Origin: Patescibacteria group bacterium
Lineage (GTDB): Bacteria; Patescibacteriota; Patescibacteriia; SBBC01; CAIJZX01
Direction: 5' to 3'
NCBI GenBank assembly: GCA_038065275.1
Contig: JBBTRH010000007.1
Coordinates: forward strand, 2,873-66,872
Length of the DNA stretch: 64,000 bases
Part shown: positions 4,994 through 46,271 of the stretch, piece by piece
Numbering within the stretch: the stretch's first letter is position 1
Layout: every line of letters begins with the position of its first letter
Translations under genes and position numbers: made by a program
Notes under the pieces: generated by a model
Databases searched by the model: none
Seen by the model: only the letters and a program-made list of their open reading frames with translations
What the model was told of the DNA's origin: nothing

Positions 4994-5797
4994 ATGAGCG
5001 CGATCAAGCTCGACGGCCGCCGCGCGGCTGATCGAATGTTGGTACAATTAAAGAAAAAAATTCGGCGCACGCGGGAACCGATCACGTTAGCCACGATTCT
5101 CGTCGGTTCGCGTTATGATTCATCCCTCTACGTCCGCCTCAAGCGCCGCGCGGCCACTCGCGTCGGGATTAAAACCGAAGCGCATCATCTTCCGGCAACG
5201 ACAAAACAAGCGTCCTTGACGCGCCTGATTCGCGCGCTCAACCACCGCAAAAACATCAGCGGCATTCTACTACAACTCCCTTTGCCACCGCGCCTCGATG
5301 CTGACGCGGCCATCCGCGTCATCGATCCCCGCAAAGATGTTGACGGTTTTCACCCGCGCAACGCCGTAGTTGTTCCCCCGCCGGTAGCCGCCGTCTTGCG
5401 TCTTATCAATCTCGGCCAACCGCCGCGAGGTTCGTTCGCGGCCATCGTCGCCCAGCCGTCAGTTTTTACCGCCCGACTGGCGACCGAACTTGCCCGCCAT
5501 GGTTTTGTTCCGGCTGTCGTTGAACCGCACCGTAATCTGAACCTGGTCACGACCAAAGCCGACATTGTCGTCACCGCGCTTGGTCAGGGCGCGCGCTTGA
5601 CGGCCCGCGACGTCAAGCGTGGCGCGATCATCGTCGATGTCGGAATACGTCGGCACGGTAAAAAAACCATCGGCGATGTTCATCCCTCAGCCTGGAAAAA
5701 AGCTAAGGCCATCAGTCCCGTACCCGGCGGAGTTGGGCCGTTGACGGTCTCCTGCGTCCTCGAAAATACTTATCAGCTGGCCGAACATCAGTCGTGA
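4994..5797 (+). CDS. folD: Bifunctional methylenetetrahydrofolate dehydrogenase/cyclohydrolase
   Basis: KDVDGFHP motif; follows glyA, giving a one-carbon metabolism pair. Confidence 0.9.
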   Translation: MSAIKLDGRRAADRMLVQLKKKIRRTREPITLATILVGSRYDSSLYVRLKRRAATRVGIKTEAHHLPATTKQASLTRLIRALNHRKNISGILLQLPLPPRLDADAAIRVIDPRKDVDGFHPRNAVVVPPPVAAVLRLINLGQPPRGSFAAIVAQPSVFTARLATELARHGFVPAVVEPHRNLNLVTTKADIVVTALGQGARLTARDVKRGAIIVDVGIRRHGKKTIGDVHPSAWKKAKAISPVPGGVGPLTVSCVLENTYQLAEHQS

Positions 5798-38132: not shown

Positions 38133-40730
38133 TTAGGGTTTACCTCTTATTTTCTTCGGATAAAGCTTTTTAGCTTGACCGATGACTTCCTTCGCCGCCC
38201 AGTCAGGAGCATCACCGAAACTTTCCAAGTTCGTTCCGTCCGGCGCATATGTTGATACGACTTGTCGGGCACCGGATCCGATGCCTCCAGCTTTCACAAT
38301 CGCGCCTAAAGATTTCAGCGACTCTTTGGCGGCAATGGTCGTGGCCGGATTATCACTGCCGCCATCGGCTGAAACCAAGACTAATCGTAAACGTTCCTTG
38401 CCTGAAGTATGTTCACTCGCGTCTTCTTGAATCATTCGTCGAACGGTCTGCAATCCCAAGTGATCGGGAGTTCCGCCGCCGACATTCTCCTGCAAAGATC
38501 TCCAAACCCTGGCTTGTTCTTTCGGCCCCCATGATGTGCCGAGCGGCAATTCCACCTTACCCGATCCACCTTGAAAACTCACTAACGCCACGCGCAAATC
38601 CAGCGGAGAAATCAACTTAATTTTCTGTCGTTTGAACTCCTGGGCCGCCCCGTACATGGAATCCATCATCAGGAACACGAACGTTTGCTGATCTTCCCAT
38701 TTCGGCCGACCACTGCTTGGATCGGTCTCAGACATGGACCCGCTTTTATCAACCGTCAAAAATGCATCAAACCCGCCGTAAATTTGTTCACGTTCCACCT
38801 TTCGTTCGTACTTGGAAAAACCCGACGGATCAGCCTCGCCGGCCGCCATATCCAAAACCGTTTCCACCGGATCAACGAGTTCCTGACCGCGAGAAAGTCT
38901 GATGGGTGCGGTGTATCTAATTCGGTTTACTAAATTATCTTGAATGACTTTTTGCCATTCCGCCAGCAACCGTGATCGAATATTCCGTCCTTGGTTGTCT
39001 CTCTTTTCTCGTGCTTCGGAAATCTTTCTCATAATTACCTTGGCCTCTTCTGGCGTACAATCGGCCTCGGCGGCAAAACGAAGTGCGGCCAGCTCCTCCG
39101 GCGCTCGCTCTTTCTGCTCCAGGGCTCGCTCAGCATCAGCCATCAGTTTTTCCAGCTGTTCGTCACTTAACACTTCCGCCTCTTGTTCGCCAAAATCACC
39201 TTCAAAAGCATCATCAGATTTTTCTTCGTCCGTTTCTTGGACGTCCATGTTTGGATCACCCGGCGGGGTGGCGTCTAATCTCTGCCAACGCTGGCCATCC
39301 CAGGCTTCCGCCCAGGCATGCGCCGTGCCGGAAGACATCACGGTGGCATTCTGCTTATCTTTTACTTTAACATAATGGCCGGATACCAGACACGATGGAA
39401 TTCCTATTCGGCGCAATAAAGCCACAAAGTAGGTGTTGGCGACATCGCAATCCGCCTGCCGGTGTTGCTCGATGCGTGAAAAGTATTCATTCGGGTCGCC
39501 GGACCGATAAACCGCATTGAAACTGGAATCATTGGAGTATTTTAGTGTGCTTCTGACAAAAGCCTTCAACGCCCGAGCTTTATCAAGAGCTGATTGATTG
39601 GATCTTACAATTTCTTCCAACTTACGTTGAGTTTCAGGAGAAAGAACTTCTGTCCCTGGCTGTGGCGCACTGGGGGCAACTTCTAAAACCGGTGTTGTAT
39701 TTTTACCAATCTCGGCTGAAAAAGAAATGAGTCCACGTTGCTTACTGGCGTCGATAATGAAACTGCCATGTCCATCACTTTTCACCGGCAAGACTTCACC
39801 ACCATGGGTCCGGATGGTTTGGACATCAGGCGCGTATCCATAAGGCATCGGAAGAATGGTTCTCTTGCCTCCATGTATCGTTCCGGCTACGGTTTTCCTG
39901 GTTTTTGCATCAAGCGACGTTTCTTCAACATCAGCAAGCGAGCTAGCCGACTTCTCCCAGCGCATGGCTCGATTGTTCCAGGTGTCAAAATCATCACCAC
40001 GGTAATACCCGCCGTAGAATGGTCGGACAGTGAAATATGCGCCCGGTTCATTCTCTTTGGATCGTTCCATCTCCTCCATGCTTGGGGTCAACGTGTCCTC
40101 TTGCGGCGGCGGAACATTCAAATCGGGTTGCTCCTGTTTCTGTTTCATGACTTCCGGCGGCGGTGGCTCCTGGGCTTTCGCTCGAGCTTCTTCCGTATCA
40201 CGAGATTCCAACCAATCCAGTGCTCCGGCTAATCGTGATTCAAACCATTGAAATTTGCTCCCGTAACTGATATTCCCTGAAGCCATCAGTTCAGAAACAT
40301 CAACCTCTCCTTCGGTCGATTGGCTCTTTACAATCCGGGTAAAAATCCGCTCCACCTCCGGGCGAACTTTTGGCATCGGCTGACCCAACTGCTTTGCCCG
40401 AAAACAAGAGAGGAGTTCGTTAACCCGATTTGGTTCAAGGCCAGTTGGTTCAGTTTGAGCCATGACTTCCGCCTGTAAGGCTTCAGTGTTTTCTGGGGAC
40501 GCCCTGACCGATCGATCGTATGCGCCGAGGGTTTCAAAAACGTGTTTCGCCGTCCGGGCTGATTTGCTCCGCTTGCCCAGCGATTGCCAAGAGCGCAGGC
40601 CGGCAATTCCCTCTCTTGATTGTAGGGCCTGGCCGATAGCCGCATTTTTGGCCTGGCGAAAAGCGTCTTTGGCGTCAAAACTGGCGATCTCTGGTTGTTC
40701 GGGATGACGACTTAATTCCGGGTTAGACAT
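38133..40730 (-). CDS. Large protein with transglutaminase-like cysteine-protease core and C-terminal von Willebrand factor A domain
   Basis: TGc core …QADCDVANTYFVALLRRIGIPSCLVSGHYV…GTAHAWAEAWDGQRWQRLDATP (Cys-His-Asp). vWA with MIDAS motif VDKSGSMS. Its start overlaps the RT stop by 8 bp. Confidence 0.75.
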   Translation of the reverse strand: MSNPELSRHPEQPEIASFDAKDAFRQAKNAAIGQALQSREGIAGLRSWQSLGKRSKSARTAKHVFETLGAYDRSVRASPENTEALQAEVMAQTEPTGLEPNRVNELLSCFRAKQLGQPMPKVRPEVERIFTRIVKSQSTEGEVDVSELMASGNISYGSKFQWFESRLAGALDWLESRDTEEARAKAQEPPPPEVMKQKQEQPDLNVPPPQEDTLTPSMEEMERSKENEPGAYFTVRPFYGGYYRGDDFDTWNNRAMRWEKSASSLADVEETSLDAKTRKTVAGTIHGGKRTILPMPYGYAPDVQTIRTHGGEVLPVKSDGHGSFIIDASKQRGLISFSAEIGKNTTPVLEVAPSAPQPGTEVLSPETQRKLEEIVRSNQSALDKARALKAFVRSTLKYSNDSSFNAVYRSGDPNEYFSRIEQHRQADCDVANTYFVALLRRIGIPSCLVSGHYVKVKDKQNATVMSSGTAHAWAEAWDGQRWQRLDATPPGDPNMDVQETDEEKSDDAFEGDFGEQEAEVLSDEQLEKLMADAERALEQKERAPEELAALRFAAEADCTPEEAKVIMRKISEAREKRDNQGRNIRSRLLAEWQKVIQDNLVNRIRYTAPIRLSRGQELVDPVETVLDMAAGEADPSGFSKYERKVEREQIYGGFDAFLTVDKSGSMSETDPSSGRPKWEDQQTFVFLMMDSMYGAAQEFKRQKIKLISPLDLRVALVSFQGGSGKVELPLGTSWGPKEQARVWRSLQENVGGGTPDHLGLQTVRRMIQEDASEHTSGKERLRLVLVSADGGSDNPATTIAAKESLKSLGAIVKAGGIGSGARQVVSTYAPDGTNLESFGDAPDWAAKEVIGQAKKLYPKKIRGKP

Positions 40731-41805
40731 AATCAGTATTTAGTCCGAGGCTTAGGCGAAGTTTCTCCCGCAGGTTATAGCTTTTCAACTGCGCCAGTAA
40801 ACCAATGTATGAAGCGAGCTGTTTCCCGACCAGACTCTGATATCCTTGGCTAGCCGCGTCGCCAGCCACCGCCAACGATGCCCTCCGCAATCTGATTCTC
40901 GGTACCAACCCATAAGGAAAAGCTACGGCTCCCAACATATCAACTCCCTGACTTAAACTACGGATAATGATTTTCTCGTCTGGTAAGGTTAAGTGGAGTC
41001 GAGTACGTAAAAAATCTTTCGCTTTCTGCGATACCTCGATTAAATGATTTTTATTCGCGGACACGATGTAAAAGTCGTCATTATACCGAGCGTAGCAACG
41101 AATATCACACACTTGTTTCATGAAGTAATCGAACTCATGCAAATAGATATTGGCGAATACTTGGGAAGTAAGGTTGCCGAGCGGAATCCCACGACCGCCA
41201 CTTCTCGAGTCCGAGCCTCGAAGTCGAGGACTGACATCTCCGGCGGAGCCGGATCCGGCTTCGCCGGAAAAACTGTTAATAATTGTCCGGCACAGTCGGA
41301 TATATTGCGGATCCTTCACTTGGCGACGGATGAGTGACAGTAAAATCTGATGATCGACGCTCCCGAAAAAGTTAGCGACGTCTCCGTGAAAAACATAGAC
41401 CTCTCGAGAAAAACTCTTGCTTTCCTGCCGCAAAAAATCCCAGATCCGGCTGATAGCCGCTTGCGTGCCCTTTCCCAGCCGACACGAATATGAATCAAAA
41501 AAGAATTGCCGATCGAACAGCGGGCACAAGGCCGAATATATCGCTTGGTGCACAATTCGATCCCGCACCGTCGCTTTATGAATAGAACGAAATTTAGGAT
41601 CTCGAACATAAAATCGGTTGTACTCGTCGTGCCGGTACGTTCCCGACTTAAGCTCTTTCGACAACTGCATCAGCTCCGATTCTAAATGGCGCTCGAAATC
41701 GATAACATCCCGTCGTTCCTGTTTTCCGCGTCGAAACCGTCTCCAGGCAAGATAGAGATTATCAAATCCTATTAACCCACTAAATGTTTGCAAACTATAT
41801 GTCAC
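40723..41805 (-). CDS. Diversity-generating retroelement reverse transcriptase
   Basis: RT motifs RSIHKATVRDRIVHQAIY, SYSCRLGKGTQAAI, FHGDVANFFGSVDH, the DGR-type motif GIPLGNLTSQVFANIYL (with the [I/L]GxxxSQ signature) and catalytic YARYNDDFYIV. GTG start with no ribosome-binding site. The gene has lower GC than its surroundings. Confidence 0.85.
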   Translation of the reverse strand: MTYSLQTFSGLIGFDNLYLAWRRFRRGKQERRDVIDFERHLESELMQLSKELKSGTYRHDEYNRFYVRDPKFRSIHKATVRDRIVHQAIYSALCPLFDRQFFFDSYSCRLGKGTQAAISRIWDFLRQESKSFSREVYVFHGDVANFFGSVDHQILLSLIRRQVKDPQYIRLCRTIINSFSGEAGSGSAGDVSPRLRGSDSRSGGRGIPLGNLTSQVFANIYLHEFDYFMKQVCDIRCYARYNDDFYIVSANKNHLIEVSQKAKDFLRTRLHLTLPDEKIIIRSLSQGVDMLGAVAFPYGLVPRIRLRRASLAVAGDAASQGYQSLVGKQLASYIGLLAQLKSYNLREKLRLSLGLNTDYV

Positions 41806-42164
41806 AAGATTCTTTCGACCCGCCGGTCGTTATAAAGATTTATAAAACCTATCAGATTTTCATTCCGCTACTGGCGAATTTCCCGAAACCGCAACGATAT
41901 ACTCTCGGACAGGTGATTGATCGTTCCCTTTTAAGCATGTTGGAATACATCTTTGAGGCCAATGCTATGCCGCTACCCTTGCGAGAGTCCTTACTCCTCC
42001 GAGCGATGGCGAAATGCGAATTGACAAAGATACTTATTCGGCTGTCATGCGAGAGTAGCATCATCAATAACACGCAGTACTTCCAACTCATGTCTAATCT
42101 TCAGGAGGTTGGTAAAATGCTGGGAGGATGGATCAAATACATTCGCCATCTGCCGGTAAAGTAA
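41784..42164 (+). CDS. avd: Avd-like four-helix-bundle protein (accessory variability determinant candidate)
   Basis: 126 aa with …FPKPQRYTLGQVIDRSLLSMLEYIFEAN… and C-terminal …EVGKMLGGWIKYI, matching the layout of the four-helix-bundle (bAvd) family. It ends 12 bp before the TR but is on the opposite strand, and its start overlaps the RT start head-to-head. Confidence 0.55.
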   Translation: MFANYMSQDSFDPPVVIKIYKTYQIFIPLLANFPKPQRYTLGQVIDRSLLSMLEYIFEANAMPLPLRESLLLRAMAKCELTKILIRLSCESSIINNTQYFQLMSNLQEVGKMLGGWIKYIRHLPVK

Positions 42165-42175
42165 TGACTGTTCTC

Positions 42176-42299
42176 ACAACGACCGCGGGGCGGGCACCCA
42201 ACTTCGGGTTCGAATTGTCAGCGTCGTTCCAGTTCACGTTGACCTGCCTATCCTGCGGATTCCAGTTGGCATTGGCGACCTTCGATGACGACACGCGGC
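42176..42299 (-). repeat. DGR template repeat (TR)
   Basis: 124 bp; in minus-strand sense rich in AAY codons (…AAT GCC AAC TGG AAT…AAC GTG AAC TGG AAC…). It differs from the VR at 18 positions, 17 of them TR adenines. Non-coding; the overlapping tracked ORFs are rejected. Confidence 0.9.
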
Positions 42300-42513
42300 C
42301 ACGCCCCGTATTCCTTGATCCATCCATACGCGCGGAGCCTTCCGCAGAAAACCCCTGACCGATATTCCCACAAGGAACGTCGTTGTGCTTCACTTGTTCA
42401 TCCCGCCCGGAGCCAACACTGTTGGATCTCCGATTCGGTGGAATGAGAGTCGGCGAACCAATCTCTCACATACGTATGTCGTACAGGAGGGTGGCTTCAT
42501 AAGCCGAAAATGG

Positions 42514-43164
42514 CTATCTGATTATTCTGTTGGCAATGATCGGTACTTCCCGTAAAAAATACTTCTTTACCTGCGCCCAGGTAGCGTCAAAATATATTTC
42601 CGGGTTTGGGTCGGTTTCGGCGTCTTCAAAAAAGACCAAGCTCTTCAAAATGTGGTGGTAATTGTGAGCCACCGACGGATACTGAATTTTCAATCTCTTA
42701 ATAATGTCCTCCAAGGATTCAACATTATTGGCGCACCAGTACAAATCAAAATAATCTCTTTTTTTACCGCGCTGTGAGATGGCGGTGATCTTCATGACCG
42801 CGATATCAAGCTGATTCAGTATCCGGATCGATCCGTAACGGAGAAAATTTTGTTTTGGGAGAAAGAATGGGTAGGCGATGAAACTTATTTTGCTTTTGGA
42901 CAGCTCGCCGTAAATGGTATTTTTTTCTTCCACGGTCGTCTCCCAGTTTTTATAGCGGGCAAAGTTCGATAGCAACTTTTTGGTATCAAAATCTGAATCG
43001 AGCGTAAAAAAATCTAAATCCAGAGACCGACGATGGCCGGCCTGAAGCGCCAGAGCCGTTCCGCCCGCCAAATACCATCCCGACGTAGTAAGCCATTGCT
43101 GTTGAGACAAAAAATCAAGTGCCTTCCTAGTGCGGTGCGGTAATGTTTGGTATTGCCAGTTCAT
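42514..43164 (-). CDS. AbiEii/AbiGii-family nucleotidyltransferase (type IV toxin-like)
   Basis: LAGGTALALQAGHRRSLDLDFF motif typical of DUF1814/AbiEii nucleotidyltransferases; AT-rich. Confidence 0.65.
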   Translation of the reverse strand: MNWQYQTLPHRTRKALDFLSQQQWLTTSGWYLAGGTALALQAGHRRSLDLDFFTLDSDFDTKKLLSNFARYKNWETTVEEKNTIYGELSKSKISFIAYPFFLPKQNFLRYGSIRILNQLDIAVMKITAISQRGKKRDYFDLYWCANNVESLEDIIKRLKIQYPSVAHNYHHILKSLVFFEDAETDPNPEIYFDATWAQVKKYFLREVPIIANRIIR

Positions 43165-43385
43165 GCTTTGAGTAGAAGTGTCCAGAGCGCCCTAGTCCTC
43201 GGTCGCAGACTTCGGGAACGTGTGATTATTTTTTTTAGCAGTTTTTGATCATAAAAATCCAAGACCCACCGCGCCTCTTTATCGTTCCCAAAATCAGCCA
43301 CCCGTTCAACAATATATTGGGCGTTCTTACGCGGATCAATATTTTTGGGATCAACATCCCAAAATAGCGTCGGCCTAAATTTCAT
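43161..43385 (-). CDS. Small hypothetical protein (possible cognate partner of the AbiEii-like gene)
   Basis: 74 aa; 4-bp overlap with the downstream nucleotidyltransferase gene suggests translational coupling. Confidence 0.4.
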   Translation of the reverse strand: MKFRPTLFWDVDPKNIDPRKNAQYIVERVADFGNDKEARWVLDFYDQKLLKKIITRSRSLRPRTRALWTLLLKA

Positions 43386-43458
43386 ATCACTATCAGTATA
43401 TCAGATTGCAAGCTCATTCGAAATGATAAATAATAAAGAAAAGTCTAGCCATTAAAAC

Positions 43459-46140
43459 TTAAAGTATCTCAACAACGACCGCGGGGCGGGCACCCAACCC
43501 CGGGCCCGACCTGCCAGCGTCGCTCCAGCTCACGCTGACCCGCCTACCCCGCGGATCCCAGTGGGCATCGGCGACCCCCGATGACGACACGCGGCTGTCT
43601 AATAGCCATGACCATTGAGATTTGGTCGCATCGTCGTCATAAGCGTCGAAACTGTGATTATTATGCTCTTCAAGTTCACGGCGTTGAAGAAGAAGATATT
43701 CGGACATCGTTAAGCCATTCCACTTTTTTTGTTGAAACAGCGTTTCCAGTTGATCCGGCGTTTTACCCTTCGTTTCCGACGGAACTGGTCTTGATTGGTA
43801 CATTAGCATATATGCTTTCACCGGACGGTTACGGGTTTGTGATTGTTTTGTTCCCTCGGCAATGTATGGATCGCCGTATTGATCGGGGGCGGACAAGCCG
43901 GTATGAGGTTTTTTAGCCATCTGCTCAATAACGGCGTTGATGGATCGCCCTTGAAGTTCGGCCTGCGGCAATATCATCGCCTTATCAAACCCCATTTTCA
44001 GCGCTTCTCGAATTCGCGCTTCGCCCTCCGGGGAGAATCGAATTTCTTTCGGCAGATTGTCGACAAAGTCGTAGAGGTCGTGTTCTTCATAGAACTCCTC
44101 CGAAACGCGCCGTGTTTCCGTAACGTCAAGCTTGATTTCCTTTCCTTCAAACCTTTCGGCAAAAGTCAACGAGGCGGCTGCCCATTCGCGTCGCAGGACT
44201 CGTTGGTCAACTAACTCAATGCCTGCTTCGCCCTCCATCACGACTTTACCCTGATGCGCGCCTTTTCCAACTCCTAACATACGCCATGGTCGTTTGCTAC
44301 GGTCTCCTTTTTTCATCCACTGCGACCGGCCGCCCGTTTGTTCGGGACTGTACACCACTTCCGTGCCGTCAGCTAAAAACTTGCTGGCCTCAACCGGTTT
44401 CGGGGCCTCTTTTAATGTTTCGGCTTCTCGCGGTACGCGCGGAGACAGAGCGCCGATTTCTTGCGGGGTGAGAAATCGATGTCCGCCTTCGGTATGAATG
44501 GAGTCCACCGATTCATCCAGCCGATAGGCCTGAAGAAATTTCCCTAGCAGGACGCGATCTTCCGACGGTAAACCCTTCCGGCCGGCCCATTCGTGCAACT
44601 GGTGGGTCAGAAACTCGGTCAGGCTTTGCCGGCGCATGCTGTGAAGCGCTTTCCGGTAGGCGCCGAGCCAGGACAAGACCAGGCCGGTATCAAGCACCGC
44701 CGCCCGCAGGTAGGAGGCTTCCCTTTCCGTCGGGGTCAAGGCGTTGGCTTGGCCGGTATAGCTACGCTGGATGTCGGCCATAAGATTAGCAAACCGCCAC
44801 AGCGTTCCGCCGGCTTCTGGCTGGGTTTTTAGTTCCTGGCGCTTAACATTGGTGGTGGCGTCCACCACGTCTTCATATTCCGGCGCAAGTTCCTCGGCCG
44901 GTAGACGAAGACGGCCGTTTTGGTCCATCAGTCCGGCCGTCAGCAATTCGTAGAGTTCCGGATTTTCCGGCGTCTGTGGCTGGTAGCCGATTTCTATTTC
45001 CCCCAACTCGCGAGCGACTTCAATCGGCAGATCCGACCGGTCGGGGTGTTTTTCCGACGGCAGGTTGGCCGAGCCGATAAACCCGAACTCGGACGAAAGC
45101 CGCTCAACCCGGCCGGCCCAAGCCGCGAAGGTGATGGCCTCGCCCGGCCGGCGGCCGGAGATCTGTTTGATCAGCGACCGCAGAGCATCCGGTGGATAGC
45201 CGTTCATTTCATCCATGTAGAAAATACCGCCCGGCCCTGGTTCCGTGCTGCGCGAGGTTTCCTTGCCGGTTAAGGCCTGACCCAGCTGACCGTAGTGGAT
45301 GTACGATCCTTCGCCGTCAATGGCTTTCGAACCCAGCAAAGGACGAATGTCGGATTTGGCCTCTTCCCCGACTTCAAGCGGGGATCGACCGACCAGGCGT
45401 CGGGATGCGTTCCTGGCGAGCGCGGTTTTTCCTGTCCCGGTTTCGCCGACAAGAAGGAGCGGGCGATTTTGGTTGAAGATGACCAGATACTCGATCATTT
45501 TCTCAAAATGTTGTTCGCGCGACGGAGTCCAGGCGAATCCTTCGGTTCGGAGTTGGTCGTTGTATTCCACCATGCGCTCAAACGACAACCGAGCCGCAAA
45601 CTCAGGGCTTTGATGTTCCAAAGAATCCAATCGCCGTTCTTGCGCCTCGATCTGCGCGGATAACTCACCAAGGCGGATTTGCGTCAGTTCGTCAGGGTCG
45701 CGGTCGCGATGCCGGAAAACAGTGCGGTAGAGTTTTTCTCTCTCGGCGAGGTACGAGTCGCGAGTGTCGCGCAGCTTTCGAAAATCAACCATCGGTTCGG
45801 CCAGCTTGATCCTTTCTTCGTACCACTGACGTAATTTTTCCATGAATGCTTTTTGTGTTTCTGGATTGTGCCACCGCTGTGCGATGGCATCTTTGACGGT
45901 AGCTATCCTATCAGGGCCTGGATGCTCTTCGTGCCGCCGGCGACCGTAGTCTTCCCACAACGCAAAAAGCTCTTCCGCTCCTCGAACCGCCTCGGAGTTG
46001 AAGACGGAAGTCTCCGGCGATCCTTGCGGTTCTGCCCCTTGCGGTGAGCGCGTCGAACCCGTGGTCTCGGGAGGGAGCGGTTCTACCTCTTGCTCGATTC
46101 TTTCCCAAATTGGATGGGTACCGCCTCGTTCAGAGCTCAT
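43459..46140 (-). CDS. DGR target: AAA+ ATPase (AAA_5/MoxR-like) with C-terminal C-type-lectin-like variable domain
   Basis: Walker A LLLVGETGTGKTALA and Walker B IFYMDEMNG. The VR forms the last 41 codons. Start set at Met14 (MSSERGG…) of the tracked ORF. No signal peptide. Confidence 0.8.
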   Translation of the reverse strand: MSSERGGTHPIWERIEQEVEPLPPETTGSTRSPQGAEPQGSPETSVFNSEAVRGAEELFALWEDYGRRRHEEHPGPDRIATVKDAIAQRWHNPETQKAFMEKLRQWYEERIKLAEPMVDFRKLRDTRDSYLAEREKLYRTVFRHRDRDPDELTQIRLGELSAQIEAQERRLDSLEHQSPEFAARLSFERMVEYNDQLRTEGFAWTPSREQHFEKMIEYLVIFNQNRPLLLVGETGTGKTALARNASRRLVGRSPLEVGEEAKSDIRPLLGSKAIDGEGSYIHYGQLGQALTGKETSRSTEPGPGGIFYMDEMNGYPPDALRSLIKQISGRRPGEAITFAAWAGRVERLSSEFGFIGSANLPSEKHPDRSDLPIEVARELGEIEIGYQPQTPENPELYELLTAGLMDQNGRLRLPAEELAPEYEDVVDATTNVKRQELKTQPEAGGTLWRFANLMADIQRSYTGQANALTPTEREASYLRAAVLDTGLVLSWLGAYRKALHSMRRQSLTEFLTHQLHEWAGRKGLPSEDRVLLGKFLQAYRLDESVDSIHTEGGHRFLTPQEIGALSPRVPREAETLKEAPKPVEASKFLADGTEVVYSPEQTGGRSQWMKKGDRSKRPWRMLGVGKGAHQGKVVMEGEAGIELVDQRVLRREWAAASLTFAERFEGKEIKLDVTETRRVSEEFYEEHDLYDFVDNLPKEIRFSPEGEARIREALKMGFDKAMILPQAELQGRSINAVIEQMAKKPHTGLSAPDQYGDPYIAEGTKQSQTRNRPVKAYMLMYQSRPVPSETKGKTPDQLETLFQQKKWNGLTMSEYLLLQRRELEEHNNHSFDAYDDDATKSQWSWLLDSRVSSSGVADAHWDPRGRRVSVSWSDAGRSGPGLGARPAVVVEIL
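43472..43595 (-). repeat. DGR variable repeat (VR) inside the 3' end of the AAA+ ATPase gene
   Basis: 124 bp aligning with the TR end to end. It encodes …RVSSSGVADAHWDPRGRRVSVSWSDAGRSGPGLGARPAVVV, against TR-encoded …RVSSSKVANANWNPQDRQVNVNWNDADNSNPKLGARPAVVV. Both share a GC-rich 3' block GGTGCCCGCCCCGCGGTCGTTGT. Confidence 0.9.
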
Positions 46141-46166
46141 AATGATTGAAAAGTATGTGACATAAA

Positions 46167-46271
46167 CCCAGCACCACAATGGTTGATTCGTTGTTATTTC
46201 TGAAAAAAGTGCAGTCTTTACTCACGTATACGTATTTTTTTTAGTTCGCATTATACCATTGTGGTGCTGGG
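46167..46271. repeat. CCCAGCACCACA inverted-repeat element, copy 2
   Basis: CCCAGCACCACAATGGT (46167-46183) and ACCATTGTGGTGCTGGG (46255-46271), a perfect 17-bp IR around a 71-bp AT-rich spacer. It lies in the divergent region between the DGR target gene and uvrB. Confidence 0.7.

What the first reader, a model, noticed from the sequence alone, without database searches (positions are those of the whole stretch)
42176..43595. TR/VR mismatches are adenine-specific: 17 of 18 differences sit at TR adenines
Codon alignment in the coding (minus) sense: TR AAG/AAT/AAC/AAT/CAG/GAT/CAG/AAC/AAC/AAC/GAC/AAT/AAC/AAG versus VR GGG/GAT/CAC/GAT/CGG/GGT/CGG/AGC/AGC/AGC/GGC/AGG/GGC/GGG. Seventeen substitutions are A to G or A to C at TR adenines, and one is a T to G. 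Both flanks are identical, including a GC-rich 3' block GGTGCCCGCCCCGCGGTCGTTGT that is IMH-like. The TR is dominated by AAY codons, the classic DGR design that samples many residues at ligand-contact positions.
Basis: seen in the sequence. Interest (0 to 1): 0.85.

Follow-up and report, generated by a model that had tools for sequence, protein, structure and literature searches.

The report
Diversity-generating retroelement in a CPR bacterium
The two near-identical 124-base stretches are the template and variable repeats of a diversity-generating retroelement that rewrites the tip of an ATPase protein in a Patescibacteria bacterium; this is a known kind of system, but the template carries a conserved RNA structure on an unexpected side.

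Summary
Confirmed. Window 42176-42299 (TR) and 43472-43595 (VR) align without gaps on the minus strand. There are 18 mismatches, 17 at TR adenines (16 A>G, 1 A>C) plus one T>G; P = 4e-13 given 27 adenines in 124 bases.

All expected parts of a diversity-generating retroelement (DGR) are present:
- a reverse transcriptase (RT) whose closest solved relative is Bordetella phage bRT;
- a bAvd-like gene on the opposite strand;
- a non-coding TR;
- a VR ending a 906-aa AAA_5 ATPase whose C-terminal domain models as a C-type-lectin/FGE fold.

Thirteen related Patescibacteria cassettes give 199 of 202 mismatches at TR adenines. The TR-(avd)-RT layout and AAA-ATPase targets are already described for CPR DGRs, so this is a new member of a known kind.

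Three things go beyond the finding:
- The substitution spectrum is skewed to A>G: 71% in the family and 94% here, against about 35% for the Bordetella enzyme.
- The cassette sits inside an older AAA-ATPase / transglutaminase-VWA operon.
- An 85-nt covarying RNA element lies upstream of the TR (42302-42386) and pairs with the TR 3' end. It may be the priming/Avd-binding "spacer" moved from the 3' to the 5' side. That reading is inference.

The parts
43472..43595 (-). Variable repeat (VR): the last 41 codons of the target gene; it differs from the TR at 18 positions
43459..46179 (-). DGR target gene. It encodes an AAA_5 (MoxR/dynein-like) ATPase with Walker A GETGTGKT at residue 245 and Walker B IFYMDE at 319, and a C-terminal CLec/FGE-fold domain carrying the VR. 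No transmembrane segment was found. The true start is probably downstream of the TTG: public calls give 893 or 794 aa.
43161..43385 (-). DUF6922 small protein, the putative antitoxin partner of AbiEii; inserted between VR and TR
42514..43164 (-). AbiEii-family nucleotidyltransferase toxin; an insertion not present in most relatives
42302..42386 (-). Conserved structured RNA element 5' of the TR. P1 5' strand ACAACGAC 42386-42379; P2 42378-42370 pairs with 42319-42310; P3 hairpin 42355-42334 with UGCG loop 42346-42343; P4 5' strand CGGGGCG 42308-42302.
42176..42299 (-). Template repeat (TR), 27 adenines. Its 3' end (P4 3' strand 42192-42186, P1 3' strand 42183-42176) pairs with the 5' element.
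41784..42164 (+). bAvd-like accessory protein (126 aa) on the opposite strand, lying between the TR and the RT
   Evidence: the same arrangement in L001, L004, L009, L011
40723..41805 (-). DGR reverse transcriptase (360 aa; LGNLTSQ and YNDD motifs; a 20-aa Gly/Ser-rich insertion before motif 4)
38133..40730 (-). Transglutaminase-core + VWA protein (865 aa). It overlaps the RT stop by 8 nt and is a conserved partner of the ATPase in all relatives, including those without a DGR.

Best explanation
This is a chromosomal diversity-generating retroelement of the Patescibacteria (CPR) type, laid out as target(VR) - TR - (avd, opposite strand) - RT.

How it most likely works: an RNA containing the TR is copied by the RT-Avd complex into cDNA, with misincorporation opposite template adenines. 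The cDNA then replaces the VR, recoding up to 16 codons (about 1e15 protein variants) on the ligand-binding face of a C-type-lectin-fold domain. That domain ends a soluble MoxR-like AAA ATPase. The ATPase works with a transglutaminase/VWA partner encoded just after the RT, so the DGR diversifies the recognition end of an intracellular ATPase-VWA machine, probably a sensor or conflict system.

Shown here: the repeat anatomy, adenine specificity, gene identities, the fold, conservation in relatives, and VR hypervariability among close relatives of one family member.

Inferred: that this copy is still active; the function of the target; and that the conserved 5' RNA element (P1-P4) positions the TR 3' end for self-primed reverse transcription, standing in for the downstream spacer RNA of the Bordetella phage element.
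For: - Adenine specificity: 17/18 mismatches at TR adenines, P = 4e-13. In 13 distinct related cassettes 199/202 mismatches are at TR adenines and 60% of TR adenines are changed.
- Genes: RVT_1 RT whose best solved relative is bRT (8ub7, E = 6e-32) with aligned hallmark motifs; Avd by Pfam and NCBIfam.
- Conserved gene order in nine relatives.
- Recent activity in the family: members of the 90% cluster of the Doudnabacteria relative differ mostly or only at VR variable codons. P0056 has 1 difference, in the VR; P0058 has 11 of its 28 differences within about 30 VR residues.
- Literature: the TR-(avd)-RT architecture is typical of CPR DGRs (PMC5758913), and CLec fused to an AAA ATPase is their commonest target (PMC10907252).
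- RNA element: 97% of cells paired, 13 pairs with compensatory change, 0/500 shuffles as good, slid-partner controls 39-56%. The diverged relative L073 rebuilds P3 and P4 from unrelated sequence.
Against: - No direct evidence that this particular copy is active: the only other assembly of the same gene (P0054) has an identical VR.
- The RT carries a 20-aa Gly/Ser-rich insertion not seen in most relatives.
- A toxin-antitoxin pair separates VR and TR by 1296 bp, against about 360-470 bp in relatives.
- The NCBIfam Avd score (69.5) is below that model's cut-off of 80.
- No GC-rich hairpin follows the VR.
- The RNA priming model has no experimental support. P4 shows no double compensatory changes within the close family, and P1 is only 7/9 paired with the TR in L073.
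Confidence: 0.93

Rival explanations
1. It is a fossil DGR. The TR/VR pattern records past mutagenic homing, but the element in this genome no longer works, for example because of the RT insertion or the toxin-antitoxin insertion between VR and TR.
For: The VR is identical in the two assemblies that carry the gene. The RT has a window-specific 20-aa insertion. The VR-TR spacing is unusual at 1296 bp. Relative L076 keeps a VR-like C-terminus with no RT or TR nearby, so DGR loss does happen in this family.
Against: The RT, Avd and target ORFs are all intact with catalytic motifs. The 5' RNA element and the TR flanks are perfectly conserved. The closest relative, L004, has a shorter version of the same RT insertion and 23 adenine-specific mismatches. 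Two assemblies are too few to show invariance.
Confidence: 0.25
2. The conserved 5' element is real RNA structure, but it is not a relocated primer/spacer. P1 and P4 simply sequester the TR 3' end (a resting or regulatory state, or protection from homing into the TR). Priming happens elsewhere, for example from sequence within the antisense-avd region or from nicked target DNA.
For: P4 would have to be unwound right after initiation, and P1/P4 have few compensatory changes within the close family. The 5' strand of P1 complements the VR version as well as or better than the TR version in several loci. Viral TR-(gene)-RT loci have a hairpin just downstream of the TR.
Against: The strand order (TR-3'-end partner immediately followed by the partner of the sequence just upstream of the TR) mirrors the Bordetella Sp47-56/Sp59-70 arrangement, and P3 looks like the Avd-binding stem-loop: 9 bp, one bulge, UNCG loop. 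The downstream flank is coding on the other strand, is displaced by a GIY-YIG gene in L004, and its complementarity to the upstream flank does not covary.
Confidence: 0.3
3. The differences come from adenine deamination (A-to-I editing or a DNA adenine deaminase acting on one copy) rather than from error-prone reverse transcription.
For: 16 of 17 adenine changes in the window are A>G, the signature of deamination.
Against: The window also has an A>C and a T>G. Across the family 29% of adenine changes are A>C or A>T. A complete RT-Avd-TR cassette is present and conserved. No deaminase gene was found in the cassette.
Confidence: 0.02
4. It is an ordinary partial gene duplication that has diverged by drift.
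For: None beyond the existence of two similar copies.
Against: Base specificity at P = 4e-13, restriction to codon positions 1-2, sharp homology boundaries and recurrence in 12 other cassettes.
Confidence: 0.005

Closest known systems
CPR/Patescibacteria DGRs of architecture B3, TR-(avd)-RT, with AAA-ATPase-linked targets (Wu et al. 2018, PMC5758913; Paul et al. 2017 as cited in PMC10907252; DGR clade 2 of Roux et al. 2021, PMC8144416)
   Same: The host lineage matches. So do the order and orientation of TR, avd and RT, the C-terminal VR on a protein with an AAA ATPase domain, the lack of membrane or secretion signals, and the chromosomal context.
   Different: Nothing essential differs. Local peculiarities are a DUF6922/AbiEii pair inserted between VR and TR and a Gly/Ser-rich insertion in the RT. 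The papers I could read mention neither the linkage to a transglutaminase/VWA gene nor the 5' RNA element. Paul et al. 2017 could not be read.
Bordetella phage BPP-1 DGR (mtd-avd-TR-brt), the mechanistic prototype
   Same: Adenine-specific TR-to-VR transfer with about 50-60% of TR adenines changed; AAY-rich TR; GC-rich 3' block; an RT homologous to bRT; an Avd homologue; a CLec-fold target with a C-terminal VR.
   Different: avd lies on the opposite strand, downstream of the TR. There is no hairpin after the VR. The target is a cytoplasmic ATPase, not a phage tail fibre. The substitution spectrum is A>G 71% against about 35%. The RNA strands that pair with the TR 3' end and with the TR-proximal upstream sequence lie 5' of the TR rather than in a 3' spacer.
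DGR-diversified MoxR-vWA 'VMAP ternary' conflict systems of cyanobacteria and Thiohalocapsa (Kaur et al. 2020, PMC7159879; Dore et al. 2024, PMC10907252)
   Same: A MoxR-like AAA ATPase and a vWA protein are encoded together with a DGR that diversifies a CLec/FGS domain. The products are predicted to be cytoplasmic.
   Different: Here the CLec domain is fused to the ATPase rather than to the vWA protein. The vWA protein carries a transglutaminase core. No VMAP protein was identified. The RT belongs to the CPR group, which those authors place apart from their clade 5.

Membership tests
Diversity-generating retroelement (DGR) | A TR/VR near-repeat whose mismatches fall at adenines of the template copy | tested here: met
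   17/18 mismatches at TR adenines, P = 4e-13
Diversity-generating retroelement (DGR) | A DGR-clade reverse transcriptase nearby ([I/L]GxxxSQ motif 4, YxDD) | tested here: met
   RVT_1 domain; best PDB hit is bRT 8ub7 at E = 6e-32; GIPLGNLTSQ aligns to GIPIGSLTSQ and YNDD to YMDD. No phylogeny was built.
Diversity-generating retroelement (DGR) | The VR lies at the 3' end of a protein-coding target gene and the TR is non-coding | tested here: met
   The VR is the last 41 codons of the 906-aa ORF. The only ORF over the TR is a spurious read-through.
Diversity-generating retroelement (DGR) | Accessory variability determinant (Avd) | tested here: met
   PF22296 bAvd 55.2 bits (cut-off 40). NF033474 scores 69.5 bits, below its cut-off of 80. 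No PDB sequence hit.
Diversity-generating retroelement (DGR) | The variable residues sit on a C-type lectin (or Ig) fold | tested here: met
Diversity-generating retroelement (DGR) | IMH at the VR 3' end, distinct from IMH* at the TR 3' end | tested here: inconclusive
   A GC-rich block is present but identical in both copies. Divergence starts right after GTCGTTGT. Relatives show scattered TR/VR differences there.
Diversity-generating retroelement (DGR) | Ongoing VR diversification in the population | tested here: inconclusive
   The window's VR is identical in P0054. Close relatives of the Doudnabacteria homologue differ mainly within the VR.
Diversity-generating retroelement (DGR) | Adenine-mutagenised cDNA made from TR RNA and homed into the VR | not testable with these tools
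   Needs experiment.
CPR DGR architecture B3, TR-(avd)-RT (Wu et al. 2018) | Order TR, then avd on the reverse strand, then RT; host in the CPR | tested here: met
   TR 42176-42299 (-), avd 41784-42164 (+), RT 40723-41805 (-). Patescibacteria MAG. Definition.
VMAP ternary conflict system (Kaur et al. 2020) | MoxR-like AAA ATPase plus a vWA protein | tested here: met
   AAA_5 in the target and VWA_2 in the 865-aa neighbour.
VMAP ternary conflict system (Kaur et al. 2020) | A third component carrying the VMAP domain | not tested
   No model for VMAP was available. No extra conserved gene is seen between or beside the two genes in relatives. I therefore do not file it as a member.

The most novel reading that the evidence does not exclude
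In this CPR DGR family the RNA elements that in the Bordetella phage lie in the spacer downstream of the TR have been moved to the 5' side of the TR. Those elements are the primer strand pairing with the TR 3' end, the adjacent 'stop' duplex strand, and the Avd-binding UNCG stem-loop. The result would be a circularly permuted DGR RNA, in which the nucleotide that primes cDNA synthesis lies about 200 nt upstream of the initiation site. This would explain how avd can occupy the downstream flank on the opposite strand. A family-specific preference for dCTP misincorporation would explain both the A>G excess and the rare T>G changes.
Probability: 0.35. Interest if true: 0.6.

Novelty: new member of a known kind. 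Interest (0 to 1): 0.4.

Why it matters
The finding itself is a textbook-clean DGR, useful mainly as correct annotation of a Patescibacteria locus. It shows once more that these tiny-genome bacteria invest in targeted hypermutation of an intracellular ATPase-linked binding domain.

The wider comparison adds three testable points for DGR biology:
- The DGR cassette was inserted between the two genes of an older AAA-ATPase / transglutaminase-VWA pair. This ties the hypervariable domain to a defined two-protein machine.
- The mutation spectrum differs strongly from the Bordetella enzyme. That would shape which amino acids are sampled, favouring Gly, Ser, Asp and Arg.
- The RNA that organises reverse transcription may be arranged differently from the only structurally characterised DGR. 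This matters for engineering DGRs as programmable mutagenesis tools and for recognising TR RNAs in the very large CPR DGR set.

Tried and rejected
- More VR or TR copies in the window: none.
- Rfam scan: only a tRNA, and no known RNA family over the cassette.
- A duplex flanking the TR (upstream GGATGGATCAA with downstream TTGATCCATCC, like the Bordetella 'cPRT Stop'): it is perfect in the window and appears in the single-sequence fold. Across 12 relatives every change breaks a pair and covariation is zero. The downstream arm is simply the Avd C-terminus (GWIKYI) read backwards. Rejected as a conserved element.
- GC-rich hairpin or terminator after the VR: none.
- Degenerate motif scan of genome contigs: 52 hits, mostly chance (Streptomyces and others), with only five real family members. 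Three of the nine metagenome hits were also chance.
- Energy screen (duplexfold) of TR 3'-end pairing with upstream versus downstream flanks in 61 DGR loci (52 viral plus 9 of the CPR family): not discriminating.
- Extending the 5' element to viral TR-(gene)-RT DGRs: these have a different upstream structure plus a hairpin downstream of the TR, and the covariance model finds nothing outside this family in 678 kb.
- Paul et al. 2017, the primary description of CPR DGRs, is not in the library, so its content is cited second-hand.
- Evidence for VR variation of this exact element: the only other copy (P0054) is identical.
Full report
**1. The observation**

Read on the minus strand, window 42176-42299 and 43472-43595 align without gaps over 124 nt. 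Homology stops abruptly at both ends. There are 18 mismatches. At 17 of them the lower-coordinate copy has A (16 A>G, 1 A>C), and the other is a T>G next to an A>G, turning codon AAT into AGG. That copy has 27 A in 124 nt, so the chance of at least 17 of 18 mismatches landing on A is 4e-13.

All adenine changes are at codon positions 1 or 2 of the frame of the 906-aa ORF 43459-46179, and TR adenines themselves avoid position 3 (11/15/1). The 26-nt 3' block is identical in both copies, and no third copy exists in the window.

**2. What surrounds it**

All genes below are on the minus strand unless stated.

| Feature | Coordinates | Identity |
|---|---|---|
| Target gene | 43459-46179 | AAA_5 ATPase; VR forms its last 41 codons |
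| Small ORF | 43161-43385 | DUF6922 |
| Toxin | 42514-43164 | AbiEii nucleotidyltransferase |
| TR | 42176-42299 | non-coding template repeat |
| avd (plus strand) | 41784-42164 | bAvd-like, 126 aa; Pfam bAvd above threshold, NCBIfam Avd model just below |
| RT | 40723-41805 | RVT_1 reverse transcriptase |
| Partner gene | 38133-40730 | transglutaminase-core + VWA, overlaps the RT stop by 8 nt |

- **Target protein.** It has intact Walker A and B motifs and no hydrophobic segment long enough for a membrane span.
- **RT.** Its closest solved relative is the Bordetella phage DGR enzyme bRT (8ub7, E = 6e-32). GIPLGNLTSQ aligns to GIPIGSLTSQ and YNDD to YMDD.
- **Context.** The flanking genes are housekeeping (UvrB, RuvA, an M16 peptidase), so this is chromosomal and not a prophage.
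- **Organism.** The target protein is 100% identical to an 'AAA family ATPase' of a Patescibacteria-group MAG.

**3. The target domain**

**4. Relatives**

About 15 full-length homologues (51-65% identity) exist, all from Patescibacteria such as Candidatus Doudnabacteria.

- **Gene order.** The nine contigs fetched for full-length homologues all show target - TR - RT - transglutaminase/VWA; a reverse-strand avd between TR and RT was called with a Pfam bAvd hit in five of them.
- **Adenine specificity.** With further members found by a DNA motif scan, 13 distinct cassettes give 202 TR/VR mismatches. Of these, 199 are at TR adenines, and 60% of all TR adenines are changed.
- **Recent diversification.** Within the 90%-identity cluster of the Doudnabacteria homologue, one member differs from the representative only at the last variable codon. 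Another has 11 of its 28 differences inside about 30 VR residues. This is evidence of recent diversification in the family. For the window's own element the only other copy has the same VR, so present activity is not shown.
- **Older operon.** Two more distant homologues (L075, L076) have the ATPase gene directly followed by the transglutaminase/VWA gene, with no RT, avd or TR. The DGR cassette is therefore an insertion into an older two-gene unit. L076 still ends in a VR-like sequence.
- **Insertions tolerated.** Toxin-antitoxin or homing-endonuclease-like genes have repeatedly landed in or beside the cassette: AbiEii here and in L073, HicAB in L074, GIY-YIG in L004.

**5. Comparison with what is known**

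- Wu et al. 2018 define architecture B3, TR-(avd)-RT with avd on the reverse strand. They report that it makes up 90% of their CPR set, and that one group of CPR targets matches a Midasin/AAA-ATPase domain.
- Doré et al. 2024, citing Paul et al. [quoted passage not shown]
- Roux et al. 2021 place CPR DGRs in their own clade and note targets without membrane domains.

So the element is a new member of a known kind.

The pairing of a MoxR-like ATPase with a VWA protein recalls the DGR-linked 'VMAP ternary' conflict systems. Here, however, the CLec domain is on the ATPase, the VWA protein carries a transglutaminase core, and no VMAP component was identified. I treat that as a functional analogy, not membership.

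**6. Mutation spectrum**

| Source | A>G | A>C | A>T |
|---|---|---|---|
| Window | 16 of 17 (94%) | 1 of 17 | 0 |
| Family (n = 199) | 71% | 14% | 15% |
| Bordetella bRT-Avd in vitro (PMC7826257) | about 35% | about 22% | about 43% |

The Bordetella figures come from misincorporation of dA 22%, dC 18% and dG 12% opposite template A. The family spectrum differs from it at chi-square P = 4e-27.

Two of the three non-adenine changes in the family are T>G. Like A>G, a T>G change requires dC misincorporation in the cDNA. An intrinsic dCTP preference of these RTs would explain both. Selection on the protein is the alternative, and I cannot separate the two.

**7.

Every TR in the family is preceded by about 85 conserved nucleotides that are absent upstream of the VRs. 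RNAalifold on 12 distinct members predicts four helices:

| Helix | 5' strand | Partner |
|---|---|---|
| P1 | ACAACGAC, 42386-42379 | last 8 nt of TR/VR homology, GTCGTTGT, 42183-42176 |
| P2 | GTTCCTTGT, 42378-42370 | ATCAAGGAAT just upstream of the TR, 42319-42310 |
| P3 | 42355-42347 | 42342-42334; a 9-bp hairpin with one bulge and a UGCG/CGCG tetraloop |
| P4 | CGGGGCG, 42308-42302 | GC-rich CGCCCCG of the TR 3' end, 42192-42186 |

- **Support.** On this alignment 97% of cells are paired, 13 pairs show changes on both sides, no shuffle of 500 reaches the observed values, and sliding the partners drops pairing to 39-56%. All nine P3 pairs covary, while P1 and P2 each have two pairs with compensatory changes. 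P4 varies only through G-U/G-C/A-U changes.
- **Strand.** G-U pairs occur only on the TR-sense strand, which points to RNA.
- **Independent folds.** The window's sequence folds into P1-P4 on its own. In the diverged relative L073, whose TR ends differently, the fold rebuilds P3 (UACG loop) and P4 (AGAGGCGGA:UCCGCCUCU) from unrelated sequence.
- **Specificity.** A covariance model of the element finds only the window's own copy in 678 kb of window, decoy and viral DGR loci. No Rfam family matches.

**8. Reading of the RNA element**

In the Bordetella phage RNP (Handa et al., bioRxiv 10.1101/2023.10.23.563531) a continuous strand of the downstream spacer makes two pairings. It pairs first with the TR 3' end (the template:primer duplex, TR118-129:Sp47-56, priming from Sp A56). 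Two nucleotides later it pairs with the sequence just upstream of the TR (the 'cPRT Stop' duplex). An Avd-binding stem with a UNCG loop lies just after the TR.

Here a continuous strand (P1 then P2, with no gap) makes the same two pairings in the same order, and P3 resembles the Avd-binding stem-loop. But all of it lies 5' of the TR.

This fits with three observations about the downstream flank:
- it is occupied by avd on the other strand;
- in L004 a GIY-YIG gene is inserted 69 nt after the TR;
- upstream-downstream complementarity does not covary.

I therefore propose, as inference, that this family uses a permuted DGR RNA. I could not generalise this: viral TR-(gene)-RT DGRs have a different upstream structure plus a hairpin downstream of the TR. 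A simpler reading, in which P1/P4 merely sequester the TR 3' end, is not excluded.

The P1 5' strand complements the VR version of the sequence as well as or better than the TR version in several loci. I cannot explain this.

**9. Verdict**

The element is a DGR of the known CPR type, chromosomal, and targets a CLec domain on a MoxR-like ATPase that partners with a transglutaminase/VWA protein. Activity of this exact copy is likely but unproven. The A>G-skewed spectrum and the 5' RNA element are the parts that a DGR specialist might want to follow up.

Noticed in passing
window 42302-42386 (-), pairing with 42176-42192: An 85-nt conserved, covarying RNA element lies immediately 5' of the TR. 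Its two outer strands pair with the TR 3' end, and its core is a UNCG-capped 9-bp hairpin. It may be a 5'-relocated equivalent of the Bordetella DGR spacer RNA. No Rfam family matches it.
   Followed up: yes
window 43472-43595 vs 42176-42299; loci L001-L011, L016, L027, L065, L073: The substitution spectrum at TR adenines is strongly skewed to A>G: 94% here and 71% over 199 changes in 13 cassettes, against about 35% for Bordetella bRT-Avd. Two of the three non-adenine changes are T>G, which also needs dC misincorporation.
   Followed up: partly
L075:220-5607 and L076:263-5464: Distant homologues have the AAA ATPase gene directly followed by the transglutaminase/VWA gene, with no RT, avd or TR. 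The DGR cassette is therefore an insertion into an older operon. L076 keeps a VR-like C-terminus (LGARPAVVVEINS) without a nearby TR.
   Followed up: partly
window 42514-43385 (-); L073:1012-1870; L074:3437-3924; L004:3773-4099: Small selfish modules recur in or beside these cassettes: DUF6922+AbiEii between VR and TR here, AbiEii upstream of the target in L073, HicB/HicA after the target in L074, and a GIY-YIG gene between TR and avd in L004.
   Followed up: no
window 42312-42322 and 42118-42128 (minus sense): A perfect 11-nt inverted repeat, GGATGGATCAA / TTGATCCATCC, brackets the TR in this window. The downstream arm is the Avd C-terminus (GWIKYI) read in antisense. The pairing is broken in most relatives and shows no covariation.
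   Followed up: yes
window 41193-41277 approx. (RT residues 177-204): The RT has a 20-aa Gly/Ser-rich insertion just before the LGNLTSQ motif. It is absent from eight relatives and half as long in L004. Its effect on activity is unknown.
   Followed up: partly
window 41784-41805: The longest RT ORF (GTG start) and the avd ORF (ATG start) overlap by 22 nt at their 5' ends on opposite strands. True starts are probably internal, since L001 has a 5-nt gap instead. This implies that avd is transcribed antisense to the TR-RT transcript.
   Followed up: no
P1 region: window 42176-42183 / 43472-43479 and equivalents in L006, L008, L016, L027, L073: Where TR and VR differ in the last 8-10 nt of homology, the 5' RNA strand is complementary to the VR version more often than to the TR version: five loci against two, with five ties. 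This is unexplained. It could bear on how cDNA is directed to the VR rather than the TR.
   Followed up: partly
L078:3376-3506, L080:3320-3450, L107:3279-3409: Viral-contig DGRs with a wide TR-to-RT gap share a different conserved-looking structured RNA upstream of their TRs (a long stem enclosing two hairpins, with an AAAUAAAAUACA linker) plus a hairpin just after the TR.
   Followed up: no
window 42133-42393 (-): An 86-aa ORF reads through the TR in the VR frame. It is almost certainly spurious, a by-product of the TR copying coding sequence, but gene callers may annotate it.
   Followed up: no
window 5285-5375 (-): A weak match (16 bits, E = 0.18) to the covariance model of the 5' element; probably chance.
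   Followed up: no
P0055 versus P0005 (Doudnabacteria relative, VR residues 867-878): One close variant differs at four VR-region residues. By my reading of the L001 VR codons two of these imply non-adenine changes (L>V by C>G, V>G by T>G), but P0055's DNA was not examined. This may be noncanonical mutagenesis or an assembly of mixed variants.
   Followed up: no
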